Shown: positions 3,001-12,000 of the stretch, piece after piece | How positions within the stretch are numbered: position 1 is the stretch's first letter | Layout: each line of letters starts with the position of its first letter | Source of the DNA: Escherichia coli | GTDB taxonomy: Bacteria; Pseudomonadota; Gammaproteobacteria; Enterobacterales; Enterobacteriaceae | DNA length: 64,000 bases | NCBI RefSeq assembly: GCF_051903065.1 | Contig: NZ_CP178438.1 | Reading direction: 5' to 3' (one strand) | Position numbers: made by a program

Positions 3001-6000
3001 AATGAAGCTGTACTTTGGATTCTATCTCTTCCGGGCGGTATTGCTCTTGCATGGCAGCCAGTGGTCCTGTTTTCATTACGGCTACAAAAGTAGCGTTAGA
3101 GGTGGTTTTTCAGATCCGCATAGCATAGCCCAAACGTCCGCGTCAAAACAGCCTTTCGCGCACTCGACGTTGAAATGATGCCCGGATTATTCATACATTA
3201 ATTTACAGAGTTTGTGGGCGTATTAGCAAAGCAAGGAACAAAGAACGTCTATTATTATAGTCAGTTAACGACCCGGGAGATGAAACGATGAACAAGGTTG
3301 CTCAATATTACCGTGAACTGGTTGCGTCACTGAGCGAACGCCTGCGCAATGGCGAACGTGATATCGACGCACTGGTGGAACAGGCGCGCGAGCGCGTAAT
3401 AAAAACAGGGGAGTTAACGCGAACCGAGGTCGATGAGCTGACGCGAGCTGTCAGACGTGACCTGGAAGAGTTCGCCATGAGCTATGAAGAGAGCCTGAAA
3501 GAAGAATCTGACAGCGTCTTTATGCGGGTGATTAAAGAAAGCTTGTGGCAAGAGCTGGCAGACATCACCGATAAAACGCAGCTTGAATGGCGCGAAGTTT
3601 TCCAGGACCTCAATCATCATGGGGTTTATCACAGCGGAGAAGTGGTCGGGCTGGGAAATCTGGTCTGCGAGAAATGTCACTTCCATCTCCCGATCTACAC
3701 ACCGGAAGTGCTGACGCTATGCCCGAAATGTGGTCATGACCAGTTCCAGAGACGCCCGTTTGAGCCGTAATAGTCTGATTTCGCACAGCAATAAAGAGAA
3801 TATGGGCCGAATGAAATTCCCCGGCCCTTGTTTTTATCTCTACAGTAAATCTTCAGTCTCACGAATTTCCTGACTGACATCTCTGGTTCCGGATGACTGA
3901 ACTTTACGATACAGGTCGAGAGCCTGTCGGAGATCGACAGGTCTTCCTTCTCCGTAGTGATACATAATGGCCAGGTTATACCAGGCAGTGGCGTCATTGC
4001 ATTCAGCGGCTTTCGTAAACCATTCAAAGGCAGCCTGATAATCTTTCTCAACGCCTTGTCCGTGTTTATACATATAACCGATGTTGACGTAAGCGCCGAC
4101 GCTCCCCTGAGCGGCAGCCTTCAGATACCAGTACATCGCTTGCTTATAGTCCTGGTCCACCCCTTCGCCAGCGTTATAATCCCATGCAATTTGAAACTGA
4201 GCATGCCGATTACCCTGCTGTGCGCTTTTCAAATACCAGAATGCGGCGAGTGTCTCGTTTTGAGCAACGCCTTTTCCGTCTTCATAAAGATCGGCCAGAT
4301 TGTTTTGCGCGTCACTATGGCCTTGTAATGCAGCTTGTTTGTACCAGAAAAATGCCAGCGTATAGTCTTGTGCGATTCCGTTGCCATTTCTGTACATCCA
4401 CCCAAGATTATTTTGCGCATAAGACATTCCGCTCTCCGCGGCTATCTGATACCAGGCAACCGCTTCTTTATAGTTGGGGTCTTCTCCACGATCCAGTATC
4501 CAGCCAAGGGCGTTGGAAGCGAAAGTATGGCCTTGTAGGGCAGCTTTTTTCAGCCAGAAGATGGCTTGCTCATTATCTTTATGACGGCTTTTATCCTCGG
4601 TATACTTTTGCCCTAAGGAATACTGTGCTTCACAATGACCTTGCTCAGCGGCCAGCTTCAGCCAGTAAAAGGCCTTTTCGTCGTCCGGAGAGTCAATTGC
4701 GCTATCGCGATTATAATAAAACCCAACAATATATTGAGCCTCACTATCGCCTTGTTCAGCACGTTCGATAATCTCATCTATTGACAAATTATCGCAGCAA
4801 CTTGACGTAAAAATCATTATCATTTCCTTATGGTTGCAGATAAAGCATATTATATTTTTATGTGTTCCGTTTTTGCGTAAGTCTTATTTTATGCGTATTA
4901 TGTTGTGTCAGAAAAGTATAAATAAATGAGCCTCGTAATGTAGTTTACATTCATTAAATGAATGTTTAAGGATAAATTATATGGACATGGAGTCGCAAAA
5001 AATATTGTTTGCACTTTCCACTCCGATGGAAATACGCAATGAATGCTGTTTACCTTCGCATTCATCCCCCAAAATGTATTTAGGTACATGCTTTTTTGAC
5101 CTTTCTTCCTCCTGGGGAATTGATGACCGTGATGACCTGCTGCGCACAATTCACCGAATGATCGATAACGGTCATGCCGCGCGGTTGGCAGGGTTTTATC
5201 ACCGCTGGTTTCGTTATTCTCCATGTGAATGGCGTGACTATCTTGCTGAATTAAATGAGCAAGGTCAGGCTTATGCGCAATTTGTCGCCAGCACAGCCGA
5301 ATGCTGTGGTGAGGGAGGAATTAAAGCATGGGATTATGTCCGGATGGGTTTTTTAAGTCGAATGGGCGTACTTAATAACTGGTTGAGTGAAGAAGAAAGT
5401 CTATGGATCCAGTCGCGTATTCATCTACGGGCTCTACGTTATTATAGTAACTGGCGGCAATACTTTGCCGGTTATACCTTTGGTCGGCAATATTGGCAGT
5501 CTCCCGAAGATGATAATCTGCCTTTATTACGTGAATTCTTAGCGCGTAAAGAATACGACGATTCCGGCAATGATATGTTTTATCAATTATTTGCCAGTGA
5601 CGATGCGTATTACCCTACCTTGTCCTGGCAACCATTGGCTTACTATTCTGCATGCCCGGAAACGCTTAAGGATATGAGCGACCTATGAAAAATTGCTGGA
5701 AGATCCTCAACATAGAGGAAACGACTGACGTCGATATTATCCGCCGCGCTTATCTGGCGCTGTTACCGTCCTTTCATCCAGAAACCGATCCGCAGGGTTT
5801 TAAACAACTTCGTCAGGCGTATGAGGAGGCGCTACGGATTGCGCAGTCGCCTGCTAAATCTGTTTGGCAACCAGAAGAATATGAGGTAGCAGAACATGAA
5901 ATTCTGCTCGCCTTTCGCGCGTTACTTGCCTCTGATAGCGAACGTTTTCTGCCCTCCGCCTGGCAGCGATTCATTCAGCAATTAAATTATTGCTCGATGG

Positions 6001-9000: not shown

Positions 9001-12000
9001 TATCCCATTGCGTTGCAGAACCAGACTGTTGAATATTACTTCGCGCTGGAACGTTGCTGTCGTTACCATCCTGACTATGTCACTGCGTTTTTGGCGATGG
9101 CAGGTCCGTGGTTAATTCCTGATGATGCGAAGTTGCATCGCAAACTGTTGCGCTGGTACAGCTCGGTGCAAACAGGTATGGCGGAACTCATTCCTGTTGC
9201 CCAACAGTGGCAAACGGAAGAACCAGAAAGCGAAGATGCCCGGTATTACCAGTGTGCACAACGTTTGTACTGCGGCGAGGGGGAAAGCCTGCTTGCCGAT
9301 CTCTGCGCGTACTGGGGAAGTTACCCATCTACACAAGCCGATAATTTGTTGTTGCAGTGGAGCGCACAACATTGCCCGGATTATTTCGCGTTATTAGTGA
9401 TGGTTATCGAAGCGCGGAGCATGGTAGATGCGCAAGGTAAACCGTTGAAATATGTTCCTGGTGAGAGCGCCCGGACGCGTCTGTTATGGGCGGAAATTTT
9501 ACATAGCGGAAAACTATCGCCGTTAGGTCAATCGTTTATTGAGTCGCTATTCTTCAAACGCAAAGCATGGGCGTGGTGGAAATCGAGAGTCGGTAGCGAG
9601 ACAGAAGAAGATTCACCGTTACTGGATTTGTATCGGGTAGCGGAACAGGTAGTACTTGAAGCGTTTCCGAAACAAGAGATGCTGGCCCGTCTTAATACAA
9701 GGCTGGAAGGCGGAGATGCTCATCCATTAGAGGCCATTATCACCCGGATGCTGTTGACGAAAGTAAAACTCGAGCCGGAGGATGAAGATGTCGATGAGCC
9801 AACACCTGAAAACCATGAAGAAAAAAATGATGAGGATGAAAAACCACAGAGCATTACCAGCATTATCAAAATCAGCTTAACGGTGCTGGTGATAGGTTAT
9901 GCTCTCGGCAAAATCGCGATGTTGTTTAGTTGACGATGTGTTTTTTGCGCCGATGCCGGATGCAGCATTTACGCCGCATCCGGCAGCCGTGATTATGGGA
10001 TCTCAATGGCTAAATAAACGCTCGCCCGCCGCCTGACCTCATCGACGCGGGCCATATCGTTTGACTGCAGCGCCGCATCAAAATCGGTGATCACCCGGCC
10101 AATCTCTTCTCGCTCGTCACCCAGCGCCCGCGCCCACAACTCTTCCAGTTTGGCCTTAAAGGTGCGGTTGATGAGCATATCGCGCGGATAAATTTTCAAT
10201 GCGGATAACCGCGTCCGACTCTCTTCAATCTGCTGCGCGCTCAATGTTACCGGGCTGTGGTTAATCACTCTGGACTTAACGCTGCCGTCTTCCAGAAGCA
10301 CGTCAACTTCAAGCAAACCGTTGATATCATAACTAAAGCGAATATCAATCGACTGATAAGCCCCGGTTCTCTTCAACGGCACATCGAAGGATTCCACCAG
10401 AATGTTGTTTTTAACTTTGTGGTTTTCTCCCTGATAGACGTTAACCGTAATAGAATCCTGTTCCGGGTGCATGGTTGAATAAGTTTCTACACGCGACACG
10501 GGCACAGTGGTGTTTCGTTCAATAATCGGCGAGAAAATGCCGGAAACGCCCTGGCGGTTAACCTCAACGCCCAACGAGTAAGGGCAAATATCAGTGAGGA
10601 TCACTTCTTCAATATCTTCACTGCGTAAGCGGCAGGCTGCCTGGATTGCTGCGCCCAGCGCGACAATGGTGCTCGGATCGTAACTTTGATACGGTAATTT
10701 GCCAAACAGACGCACGGCGATTCGCTGCACCAGCGGCATTTGTGACGCGCCGCCAACCAGCACCAGACTGTCGATTTGACTCGGCTTCAGACGCGCATCG
10801 CGCAACGCCTGTTCAATCGGCACTCGCAAGCGATTGAGCAGCGGCAACCACAAATCTTCCAGTTCGTTCTCGTAAAATTCGCATTCCCGCGTTTCATCCT
10901 GGTACTGCCAGCGAATGTGCATTGGCGATTGATTGCTACATTTTGCCGCTTCCACACAGGCATACAAGGCTGCCAGTTCACTCTCGTTAAGCGTGGTCCT
11001 GGCGACATCCGCGCGTTTTAAAACCTCATCGACCAGCATATGGGTAAAATCTTCGCCACCGAGGAAGTTGTCGCCAGCGGAGGCGTGAACTTCAATCACC
11101 GGCGTGGCGTACTCAAGCACCGTAACGTCAAACGTGCCGCCACCGAGATCAAACACCAGCGAACGGGTATTTTGTTGGGTATGCAGGCCATACGCCATCG
11201 CAGCTGCTGTGGGTTCATTAATTAAGCGTACCGCATTTAAACCGGCTAACTCCGCTGCTAAACGGGTATGCTTGCGTTGTTCATCGCTGAAATAAGCCGG
11301 AACAGAGATCACCACATCTTTAATCGGACGTTGCAGAAATTCTTCGGCATCTTCTTTTAATGAGCGTAATACCAAAGAGGACAGTTCTGGCGCGTTAAAT
11401 GTGTCGCTGCCTAACTGCCAGTTGGTATTACTGCCCATTGCACGTTTAAATAACGCTGCCGTTTTATCCGGATGCGAAGTACGCCGTGATACAGCCGGTT
11501 TTCCGACTAAAATATGATTATTTTCATCCATGCTAATTATGGATGGTGTTAAATATTTACCGAACTTATTTGGAATTAATTGCGCGGCACCGTCTTTCCA
11601 GACGGCAATTAAACTATTGGTAGTACCGAGATCGATACCAATGGCGAGTTCTGCATTATCCATTGCATTTATATCTTGAAAAAAAAAAGAGATAAACAGA
11701 TTAAGACCACCCAGGTAACGCGTGGTGATCTTAATCAATGACGTGTGTTAAGCGTAAAATTTCAGACGATCAGCCAGTAAATCAACAAAGCCCTGACGAT
11801 CAACATCGACCATTACAGTGGCATTCGGTTTATTGCCAGTCAGATAATAATAATCAACAACCGTCATCCCCTGGGTATATTTCCCCTGTGTTTCCACGCC
11901 AACCCAGCGCTCAACAGTGGTAAACAACTCGGGTTTCAACAGCCAGGCGATGGTGCATGGGTCATGCAGCGGTGCGCCGACAAAGCCCCATTTTTCGTCT

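What the first reader, a model, noticed from the sequence alone, without database searches (positions are those of the whole stretch)
5685..9933. DjlB and DjlC carry HPE instead of the canonical HPD in the J-domain
Both J-proteins read ...[12 protein letters not shown] / ...[12 protein letters not shown] at the position where J-domains normally have the catalytic HPD tripeptide. The Asp of HPD is generally required to stimulate Hsp70 ATPase, so conservation of Glu in both paralogues suggests an altered coupling to the partner Hsp70 rather than random decay.
Basis: partly seen in the sequence, partly recalled or inferred. Interest (0 to 1): 0.5.

Follow-up and report, generated by a model that had tools for sequence, protein, structure and literature searches.

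The report
Known HPE J-domains of DjlB/DjlC
The two E. coli co-chaperone genes djlB and djlC really do carry His-Pro-Glu where almost all J-domains have His-Pro-Asp, and the Glu is fixed across their whole family, which always sits beside the specialised Hsp70 HscC, but this peculiarity has already been published.

Summary
The window is E. coli, and the two ORFs are djlB (5685-7112) and djlC (8482-9933). Both read HPE at residues 31-33. Profile alignments and structure prediction place this tripeptide exactly on the HPD loop of a genuine but shortened J-domain. An HPD at DjlC residues 196-198 is a non-conserved chance tripeptide.

HPE is not strain-specific. It is present in at least 2880 (djlC) and 3816 (djlB) complete E. 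coli genomes and in Salmonella. Among 101 relatives with an intact N-terminus, 98 have Glu at this position (88 HPE, 8 NPE, 1 KPE, 1 PPE), 3 have RPD and none has HPD. Both Glu codons are used.

In 81 of 82 related loci the J gene lies next to an HscC-type Hsp70, and in 80 a DUF1266 gene lies beside it, in all but one immediately upstream. The Hsp70 residues that bind the Asp of HPD in DnaK (R167, Q378) are unchanged in the HscC family. Other interface features differ (D477 is Ser/Thr; loop 208-211 is deleted).

So the Glu is selected, not decayed. That it alters coupling to the Hsp70 is plausible but unproven. HPE in DjlB/DjlC is stated explicitly in a 2023 PNAS analysis and a 2026 review, so the finding is already known and of low interest.

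The parts
5685..7112 (+). djlB (ybeS), 475-aa tail-anchored J-protein
   Evidence: ORF. 100% identical to a RefSeq-annotated djlB. 50% identical to DjlC.
5694..5825 (+). DjlB J-domain core (aa 4-47)
   Evidence: Pfam DnaJ PF00226, E 6.9e-4, model positions 2-51 of 63.
5775..5783 (+). DjlB HPE codons CAT CCA GAA (aa 31-33)
   Evidence: An exact 28-mer spanning the GAA codon is found in 3816 complete E. coli genomes.
8482..9933 (+). djlC (ybeV), 483-aa tail-anchored J-protein
   Evidence: ORF. RefSeq 'co-chaperone DjlC'. AlphaFold2 model with pLDDT 89.8.
8491..8643 (+). DjlC J-domain (aa 4-54): helix I 4-8, helix II 16-29, loop 30-35, helix III 36-54
   Evidence: Pfam DnaJ aa 4-47, E 0.036. AlphaFold2 secondary structure. 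Foldseek top PDB hits are J-domains, TM 0.64-0.80.
8572..8580 (+). DjlC HPE codons CAT CCC GAA (aa 31-33), in the helix II-III loop
   Evidence: Aligned on DnaJ H33-P34-D35. An exact 28-mer spanning GAA is found in 2880 complete E. coli genomes.
9853..9927 (+). DjlC C-terminal transmembrane tail-anchor helix (aa 458-482)
   Evidence: AlphaFold2 helix 458-482 with hydrophobic sequence. Membrane insertion is reported in PMC8215388.
9993..11663 (-). hscC (ybeW), 556-aa specialised Hsp70, partner of DjlC/DjlB
   Evidence: ORF (the longest ORF starts at TTG 11738; homology supports ATG 11663). 31% identical to DnaK. A 99%-identical cluster is named HscC.
4981..5688 (+). ybeR, DUF1266 gene whose stop overlaps the djlB start (ATGA at 5685-5688)
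   Evidence: A DUF1266 gene accompanies the J gene in 80 of 82 related loci, upstream in all but L003/L004.
7778..8485 (+). ybeU, DUF1266 gene whose stop overlaps the djlC start (ATGA at 8482-8485)
   Evidence: 59% identical to YbeR.
7122..7676 (-). ybeT, Sel1/TPR-repeat protein between the two J units
   Evidence: NCBIfam matches to Sel1/TPR-type families.
3840..4823 (-). ybeQ, Sel1-repeat protein upstream of ybeR
   Evidence: 38% identical to YbeT over the repeats.

Best explanation
These are the known E. coli genes djlB and djlC. Each encodes a tail-anchored inner-membrane co-chaperone with a real but compact J-domain at its N-terminus. In that domain the catalytic loop reads HPE instead of HPD (shown here). 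The Glu is a selected, family-wide feature. The whole DjlB/DjlC family carries the extended signature H-P-E-x-D-P-x-G-F. Its loop and the start of helix III are six residues shorter than in DnaJ. The family is encoded next to an HscC-type Hsp70 and a DUF1266 protein (shown here). Published biochemistry reports that DjlC stimulates the HscC ATPase while DnaJ, CbpA and HscB do not. The inferred mechanism is that the HPE loop docks on HscC as the HPD loop docks on DnaK. Under this model the Glu carboxylate bonds the conserved Arg146 and Gln341 of HscC, which correspond to DnaK R167 and Q378. The extra methylene of Glu would make up for the changed geometry of a shortened J-domain on a remodelled Hsp70 surface, where DnaK D477 is Ser/Thr and NBD loop 208-211 is deleted. 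On this reading Glu is one co-adapted element of a private J/Hsp70 pair, not a defect.
For: Identity and annotation. HPE at the HPD position: Pfam; family profile against PDB J-domains with HPE aligned on DnaJ H33-P34-D35; AlphaFold2 fragment with pLDDT 93.5 placing HPE in the helix II-III loop, and Foldseek top hits that are J-domains; full-length model with pLDDT 89.8. Fixation: phmmer against 1.84e9 representatives gave 101 N-terminus-intact hits, of which 88 were HPE, 8 NPE, 3 RPD, 1 KPE, 1 PPE and 0 HPD. In a MAFFT alignment of 51 diverse relatives, E33 is at least 90% conserved and better conserved than H31. Glu codons are GAA 57 and GAG 25. HPE is present in the K-12 lineage, a divergent E. 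coli strain and Salmonella, and in at least 2880 and 3816 E. coli genomes. Partner: an Hsp70 is adjacent in 81 of 82 loci, and every one scores higher against HscC than against DnaK; DUF1266 is adjacent in 80 of 82. Interface in 77 HscC-family sequences: R167, Q378, L391, D393 and P419 are invariant; D477 is Ser/Thr in 77 of 77; loop 208-211 is deleted in 77 of 77. Literature: D35 bonds R167 and Q378 (PMC8215388); DjlC-specific stimulation of HscC; the DjlC J-domain cannot replace DnaJ's (PMC1906734); HPE noted in DjlB/DjlC (PMC10410713; PMC13254874).
Against: No structure or model of the DjlC-HscC complex was available, so the Glu-Arg146/Gln341 contact is an inference by homology to 5NRO. The direct contact residues in HscC are unchanged, so nothing in the sequences requires Glu rather than Asp. 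Three relatives carry RPD with the same loop length, next to an Hsp70 and a DUF1266 gene, so Asp can be accommodated in some contexts. The 79 loci from the genome scan were found with an HPE-containing pattern. They therefore cannot be used to count Glu against Asp; only searches are unbiased in that respect. The reverse test, asking whether every HscC-type Hsp70 has an HPE partner, was done only for Salmonella.
Confidence: 0.75

Rival explanations
1. Glu is a functionally neutral, conservative replacement of Asp. It was present in the family's founder and has simply been inherited, so coupling to the Hsp70 is not altered.
For: Asp and Glu are chemically similar. HscC keeps R167 and Q378, the DnaK partners of D35. 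A 2026 review calls HPE 'the only replacement tolerated' (PMC13254874). RPD variants exist within the family.
Against: A single transversion of either Glu codon gives Asp. Yet 98 of 101 relatives, spanning Proteobacteria and Firmicute-like genomes with J regions down to about 50% identity, keep Glu while using both GAA and GAG. No HPD occurs at all, and Asp appears only together with Arg replacing His. Conversely, HPE makes up only about 1% of all J-domains (PMC10410713). Such reciprocal exclusivity argues for context-dependent selection, not neutrality.
Confidence: 0.15
2. Glu is the main specificity switch that insulates the HscC system from DnaK and HscA. Under this reading, E-to-D in DjlC would allow it to act on DnaK, and D-to-E in DnaJ would let it act on HscC.
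For: Partner exclusivity is documented. HPE co-occurs strictly with HscC-type Hsp70s in the loci examined.
Against: Many other interface differences could carry specificity. DnaJ K26 and R27 correspond to L24 and A25 in DjlC. The K48-D477 salt bridge is lost (D477 to Ser). The acidic NBD loop 208-211 is deleted, and the J loop is six residues shorter. A single methylene is unlikely to be the sole determinant.
Confidence: 0.08
3. The HPE domains are degenerate, J-like remnants that no longer stimulate an Hsp70. DjlB and DjlC would then act as Hsp70-independent membrane scaffolds.
For: The Pfam scores are weak (E 6.9e-4 and 0.036), cover only model positions 2-51 of 63, and the canonical Asp is missing.
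Against: Published work reports that DjlC stimulates the HscC ATPase (PMC8215388). The tripeptide and its surroundings are the best-conserved part of the protein. An Hsp70 gene is adjacent in 81 of 82 loci. The fold is a J-domain.
Confidence: 0.02

Closest known systems
E. coli DjlB (YbeS) and DjlC (YbeV/Hsc56), co-chaperones of HscC (Hsc62)
   Same: The window copies are these genes: 100% DNA identity to an annotated E. coli genome, with the same gene order ybeQ-ybeR-djlB-ybeT-ybeU-djlC-hscC. HPE in both proteins is stated in PMC10410713 and PMC13254874.
   Different: Nothing differs. This is the described case itself.
J-domain of E. coli DnaJ bound to DnaK (PDB 5NRO)
   Same: The helix II-loop-helix III hairpin with the tripeptide in the loop is shared. 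So are Y23 (DnaJ Y25), R20 (R22), F39 (F47), K40 (K48) and the A-Y-E motif of helix III. The Hsp70 partner keeps R167, Q378, L391 and P419.
   Different: Glu replaces Asp. The loop and start of helix III are six residues shorter. DnaJ K26 and R27 are L24 and A25. Helix IV is not matched by the Pfam model. The partner Hsp70 lacks D477 and NBD loop 208-211.
HscB-HscA, the other dedicated J-protein/Hsp70 pair of E. coli
   Same: Both are a specialised class C J-protein working with one specialised Hsp70, with no cross-stimulation with the DnaK system (PMC8215388).
   Different: HscB is described in the review as having an HPD motif and is soluble, with an Fe-S scaffold-binding domain. DjlB and DjlC have HPE, an alpha-solenoid body and a membrane tail anchor.
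J-proteins with a mutated HPD motif ('type IV' JDPs, e.g. DNAJB13)
   Same: They also deviate from the canonical tripeptide.
   Different: Those variants are presumed unable to stimulate Hsp70 (PMC13254874). Here the variant residue is under strong conservation and the protein is reported to be active on its Hsp70.

Membership tests
J-domain (Pfam PF00226 DnaJ) | Significant match to a J-domain sequence profile | tested here: met
   Pfam DnaJ gives E 6.9e-4 (DjlB) and 0.036 (DjlC), which is weak for single sequences. A profile of 34 family members hits solved J-domains at E 3e-7 to 3e-6.
J-domain (Pfam PF00226 DnaJ) | Helix II-loop-helix III hairpin fold with the signature tripeptide in the loop | tested here: met
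   AlphaFold2 (pLDDT 93.5 and 89.8) gives helices 16-29 and 36-54 with HPE in loop 30-35. Foldseek top PDB hits are J-domains, TM 0.64-0.80, rmsd about 2-3 A.
J-domain (Pfam PF00226 DnaJ) | Canonical His-Pro-Asp tripeptide | tested here: not met
   The tripeptide reads His-Pro-Glu in both proteins. No HPD occurs among 101 relatives. The HPD at DjlC residues 196-198 lies outside the J-domain and is not conserved (H in 3 of 51).
J-domain (Pfam PF00226 DnaJ) | Complete four-helix domain including helix IV | tested here: inconclusive
   The Pfam match stops at model position 51 of 63. The AlphaFold2 model continues directly into a long helix at 56-82.
J-domain (Pfam PF00226 DnaJ) | Stimulates the ATPase of a partner Hsp70 | not testable with these tools
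   Literature only: DjlC stimulates HscC (Kluck 2002, as cited in PMC8215388). DjlB has not been tested, according to the same review.
DjlB/DjlC family (Pfam PF27158 DjlB_C_2nd; tail-anchored HscC co-chaperones) | Sequence identity with annotated djlB/djlC and the shared alpha-helical body | tested here: met
   100% DNA identity to an annotated locus. Relatives carry PF27158.
DjlB/DjlC family (Pfam PF27158 DjlB_C_2nd; tail-anchored HscC co-chaperones) | Encoded next to an HscC-type Hsp70 | tested here: met
   hscC lies at 9993-11663, convergent with djlC. An Hsp70 is adjacent in 81 of 82 related loci, all closer to HscC than to DnaK.
DjlB/DjlC family (Pfam PF27158 DjlB_C_2nd; tail-anchored HscC co-chaperones) | C-terminal transmembrane tail anchor | tested here: met
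   Both proteins end in hydrophobic C-termini. AlphaFold2 predicts helix 458-482 in DjlC. Membrane insertion itself is known from the literature only.
Degenerate 'type IV' J-like proteins | Tripeptide no longer under constraint and no dedicated Hsp70 partner | tested here: not met
   Glu is conserved in 98 of 101 relatives, with synonymous codon turnover. A partner Hsp70 is adjacent.

The most novel reading that the evidence does not exclude
The Glu may be an obligatory, co-adapted element of a private J-domain/Hsp70 interface. That interface belongs to a widely conserved three-gene module: DUF1266, then a short-loop HPE J-protein, then an HscC-type Hsp70. The searchable literature does not describe this module. 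Under this reading, swapping Glu and Asp would measurably change which Hsp70 is activated, and DUF1266 would be a third, unstudied component of the HscC chaperone system.
Probability: 0.25. Interest if true: 0.45.

Novelty: already known. Interest (0 to 1): 0.15.

Why it matters
The HPD Asp is treated as indispensable for J-domain function, so a whole family that uses Glu shows how far the J/Hsp70 trigger can be retuned. It also offers a natural system for studying partner specificity. That point is already in the literature. This analysis adds a quantitative picture. Glu is better conserved than His in the family. HPD never occurs in it. The Hsp70 residues that bind the Asp are unchanged, while other interface features differ. 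The J gene almost always travels with an HscC-type Hsp70 and a DUF1266 gene. These results define clean mutagenesis experiments, but they do not change current understanding.

Tried and rejected
1. 'The true HPD lies elsewhere.' DjlC does contain HPD at residues 196-198 (window 9067-9075). That position lies in the alpha-solenoid body, reads HPE in DjlB, and its column is not conserved (H in 3 of 51). Rejected.

2. 'HPE is strain-specific.' Rejected.

3. 'DnaK D481 to Asn in HscC compensates for the longer Glu.' Rejected because M. tuberculosis DnaK also has Asn there (alignment), so the change is not specific to HscC.

4. Covariation between the RPD variants and their Hsp70. The L003 Hsp70 has N170S and D477T, but so does the L002 Hsp70, whose partner has HPE. 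No signal.

5. Anti-phage defence. PADLOC gave no hits for HscC, DjlB, DjlC, YbeR, YbeU or YbeT.

6. A first genome scan with the 51-sequence full-length alignment failed because no stretch was conserved enough. It was repeated with a J-domain alignment.

7. The reverse test starting from HscC homologues returned almost only Escherichia and Salmonella. Only Salmonella could be checked.

8. The fold search with full-length DjlC gave only weak, generic TPR/alpha-solenoid matches (TM at most 0.23).

9. The primary paper (Kluck 2002) is not held in the library.

10. A fused J-HscC structure prediction was considered and not run, because the tool returns no coordinates for contact analysis.
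Full report
**What is there.** The interval holds two same-strand ORFs, 5685..7112 (475 aa) and 8482..9933 (483 aa). They are 50% identical over their full length. Their N-termini read ...[14 protein letters not shown] and ...[14 protein letters not shown]. The HPE codons are CAT CCA GAA at 5775-5783 and CAT CCC GAA at 8572-8580. The stretch is 100% identical to E. coli strain ECNB21-M121. RefSeq annotates it there as djlB, ybeT, ybeU and djlC, with ybeR overlapping the djlB start. Convergent with djlC lies hscC (9993..11663), whose product is 31% identical to DnaK.

**Is HPE at the HPD position?** Pfam DnaJ (PF00226) matches residues 4-47 of both proteins to model positions 2-51 of 63. 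The match is weak (E 6.9e-4 and 0.036). A profile built from 34 family members (alignment A2) hits solved J-domains: C. elegans dnj-12 at 2.9e-7, E. coli DnaJ (1bqz, 1xbl, 5nro_B) at about 1e-6, and CbpA at 2.9e-6. HMMER places the family's HPE column for column on DnaJ H33-P34-D35 and F39 on DnaJ F47, with two three-residue deletions between them.

AlphaFold2 models agree. The J fragment has pLDDT 93.5 and full-length DjlC 89.8. They give helix I at 4-8, helix II at 16-29, a loop at 30-35 (C-H-P-E-T-D) and helix III at 36-54. Foldseek's best PDB matches to the fragment are almost all J-domains, with TM 0.64-0.80 and rmsd about 2-3 A.

DjlC also contains an HPD at residues 196-198 (window 9067-9075). 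It lies in the alpha-helical body and reads HPE in DjlB. Its alignment column is not conserved (H in 3 of 51, P in 21 of 51, D in 10 of 51).

**Is HPE fixed or strain-specific?** Each 45-nt query was designed so that every 28-mer seed spans the Glu codon. These queries hit 2880 (djlC) and 3816 (djlB) of 5426 complete E. coli genomes. The lower djlC figure reflects synonymous neighbours such as TTA/TTG and CAG/CAA, seen in a K-12-lineage strain and in a divergent strain. Both of those strains keep HPE.

A full-length phmmer search of DjlC against 1.84 billion representatives gave 1592 hits. Of the best 150, 101 have an intact J region under an alignment that is not anchored on the motif. They split into HPE 88, NPE 8, RPD 3, KPE 1, PPE 1 and HPD 0 (the same picture appears). 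In a MAFFT alignment of 51 diverse full-length relatives, P32, P36 and G38 are invariant, and E33, D35 and F39 are at least 90% conserved. H31 falls below that level. Glu is therefore better conserved than His in this family.

The family signature is H-P-E-x-D-P-x-G-F. Both Glu codons are used in the related loci (GAA 57, GAG 25), which shows synonymous turnover under amino-acid constraint. Salmonella, reached through its HscC and not through the motif, has two adjacent J genes that read HPES and HPET. The second refutation criterion, a strain-specific variant, is not met either.

**The partner.** Three distant relatives found without reference to the motif were examined: an 895-aa protein, a 1071-aa TPR fusion and a 454-aa RPD variant. 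Each lies next to a roughly 565-aa Hsp70 gene, and two also lie next to a DUF1266 gene. A scan of one genome per species (100,044 species) with HPExDP[EQD]GF found 418 confirmed sites. The best 79 loci come from Escherichia, Gilliamella, Pseudomonas, Brenneria, Klebsiella, Budvicia, Pectobacterium, Pragia, Caballeronia and one Lachnospiraceae MAG.

Across 82 loci with a J gene, 81 have an adjacent Hsp70; the exception is a locus that ends about 2.3 kb into the J gene. Eighty have an adjacent DUF1266 gene, upstream of the J gene in all but L003/L004, and 79 have both. All 81 Hsp70s score higher against HscC than against DnaK. These 79 loci were selected with an HPE pattern. They document synteny, not the ratio of Glu to Asp.

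**The interface.** My DnaK sequence was verified against PDB entries. In the DnaK-DnaJ structure, D35 hydrogen-bonds R167 and Q378, H33 bonds the backbone of L391, P34 packs on P419, and K48 forms a salt bridge with D477 (PMC8215388). In 77 distinct HscC-family sequences, the residues at DnaK positions R167 (HscC R146), Q378 (Q341), L391, D393, P419, T173 and D326 are invariant. K414 is always Arg. D477 is Ser in 75 and Thr in 2. L392 is always Thr. The acidic NBD loop D208-D211 is always deleted.

On the J side, DnaJ R22, Y25, F47 and K48 have counterparts (R20, Y23, F39, K40), but K26 and R27 are L24 and A25, and the loop is six residues shorter. The residues that would receive the carboxylate are thus unchanged, while the surrounding docking surface is remodelled on both partners. 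The D481-to-Asn change in HscC is not specific to it, because M. tuberculosis DnaK has the same residue.

**Mechanism.** Three things are shown here: a genuine, compact J-domain with Glu in the catalytic loop; strong selection for that Glu; and obligate genomic association with an HscC-type Hsp70. Three things come from the literature. DjlC stimulates HscC while DnaJ, CbpA and HscB do not (PMC8215388). The DjlC J-domain cannot replace that of DnaJ (PMC1906734). DjlC is tail-anchored in the inner membrane.

The rest is inferred. The HPE loop probably docks as HPD does, with Glu33 reaching Arg146 and Gln341. The extra methylene would compensate for the shortened loop and the altered docking. On this reading Glu is one co-adapted element of a private pair, not the sole specificity switch.

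The neutral-substitution rival is weakened by the complete absence of HPD in the family and the roughly 1% frequency of HPE among all J-domains (PMC10410713). It is not excluded, because RPD variants exist. The 'dead J-domain' rival is contradicted by conservation, synteny and the published ATPase data.

**Comparison with what is known, and novelty.** The HPE tripeptide of DjlB and DjlC is stated explicitly in a 2023 large-scale analysis. That study counted 2,921 HPE J-domains, about 1% of all, and named DjlB and DjlC (PMC10410713). [quoted passage not shown] The finding is therefore already known.

Three points appear less documented. No paper in the library contains both 'DUF1266' and 'Hsp70', so the near-universal DUF1266/J/HscC triad may be undescribed there. 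The higher conservation of Glu than of His is another. The existence of NPE and RPD sub-lineages is the third. Barriot et al. 2020 (J Mol Biol), which may cover some of this, could not be read.

**Verdict.** Novelty: already known. Interest: low (0.15).

Noticed in passing
window 4981-5688, 7778-8485; loci L001, L003, L005-L083: A DUF1266 gene (ybeR or ybeU in E. coli) lies next to the HPE J gene in 80 of 82 loci, upstream of it except in L003/L004, where it lies downstream. In E. coli the two genes overlap as ATGA (5685-5688 and 8482-8485). Together with the adjacent HscC-type Hsp70 this makes a conserved three-gene module. No paper in the searchable library contains both 'DUF1266' and 'Hsp70'.
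   Followed up: partly
window 3840-9933; L005-L007, L036, L086: In Escherichia the unit Sel1-repeat gene (-) / DUF1266 (+) / J gene (+) is tandemly duplicated as ybeQ-ybeR-djlB and ybeT-ybeU-djlC. YbeR/YbeU are 59% identical, DjlB/DjlC 50% (77% in the J region) and YbeQ/YbeT 38%. Klebsiella has a single copy. Most other genera have a single J protein of about 890 aa, which in L001 carries a C-terminal DUF805 domain.
   Followed up: partly
proteins P0091, P0120, P0122, P0124, P0126, P0127, P0134, P0138, P0141-P0143, P0149; locus L003 8001-9365: Distant relatives carry NPE (8), RPD (3), KPE (1) or PPE (1) in place of HPE. The 'essential' His is lost more often than the Glu, and Asp appears only together with Arg. 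The one RPD protein whose locus was examined (P0091, L003) still sits next to an Hsp70 and a DUF1266 gene.
   Followed up: partly
window 9067-9075 (DjlC aa 196-198) and 6270-6278 (DjlB aa 196-198): A second tripeptide lies in the helical body of each protein: HPD in DjlC and HPE in DjlB. The column is not conserved in relatives, so it is a chance tripeptide and not a displaced J-domain motif.
   Followed up: yes
window 5685-9933 compared with 5426 complete E. coli genomes: The locus is absent from about 19% of complete E. coli genomes (4407 have any match; 3693 have at least 80% of it). A recurrent variant matches only query positions 1301-4249 and so lacks most of djlB.
   Followed up: no
window 9993-11738 (-): The longest hscC ORF starts at TTG 11738 (581 aa). 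Homology to DnaK and the 556-aa HscC cluster indicate that the real start is ATG 11663.
   Followed up: partly
window 8482-9933 (DjlC residues 56-430): The body of DjlC is predicted with high confidence as an all-alpha, TPR-like solenoid (Pfam PF27158 in relatives). It has only weak, generic structural matches in the PDB (TM at most 0.23). Some relatives fuse it to long canonical TPR arrays (P0125).
   Followed up: partly
locus L086 11175-11879: In the Salmonella genome examined, the ybeU orthologue between the two J genes is frameshifted, and no ybeT-like Sel1 gene is present.
   Followed up: no
window 23502-24205 (-), 14952-15114 (-), 60056-60098 (+): A seven-gene tRNA cluster (Gln, Gln, Met, Gln, Gln, Leu, Met), the sroC sRNA and the ES036 (CssrF) sRNA all lie in the window. 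They match known Rfam families or ARAGORN tRNA predictions.
   Followed up: no
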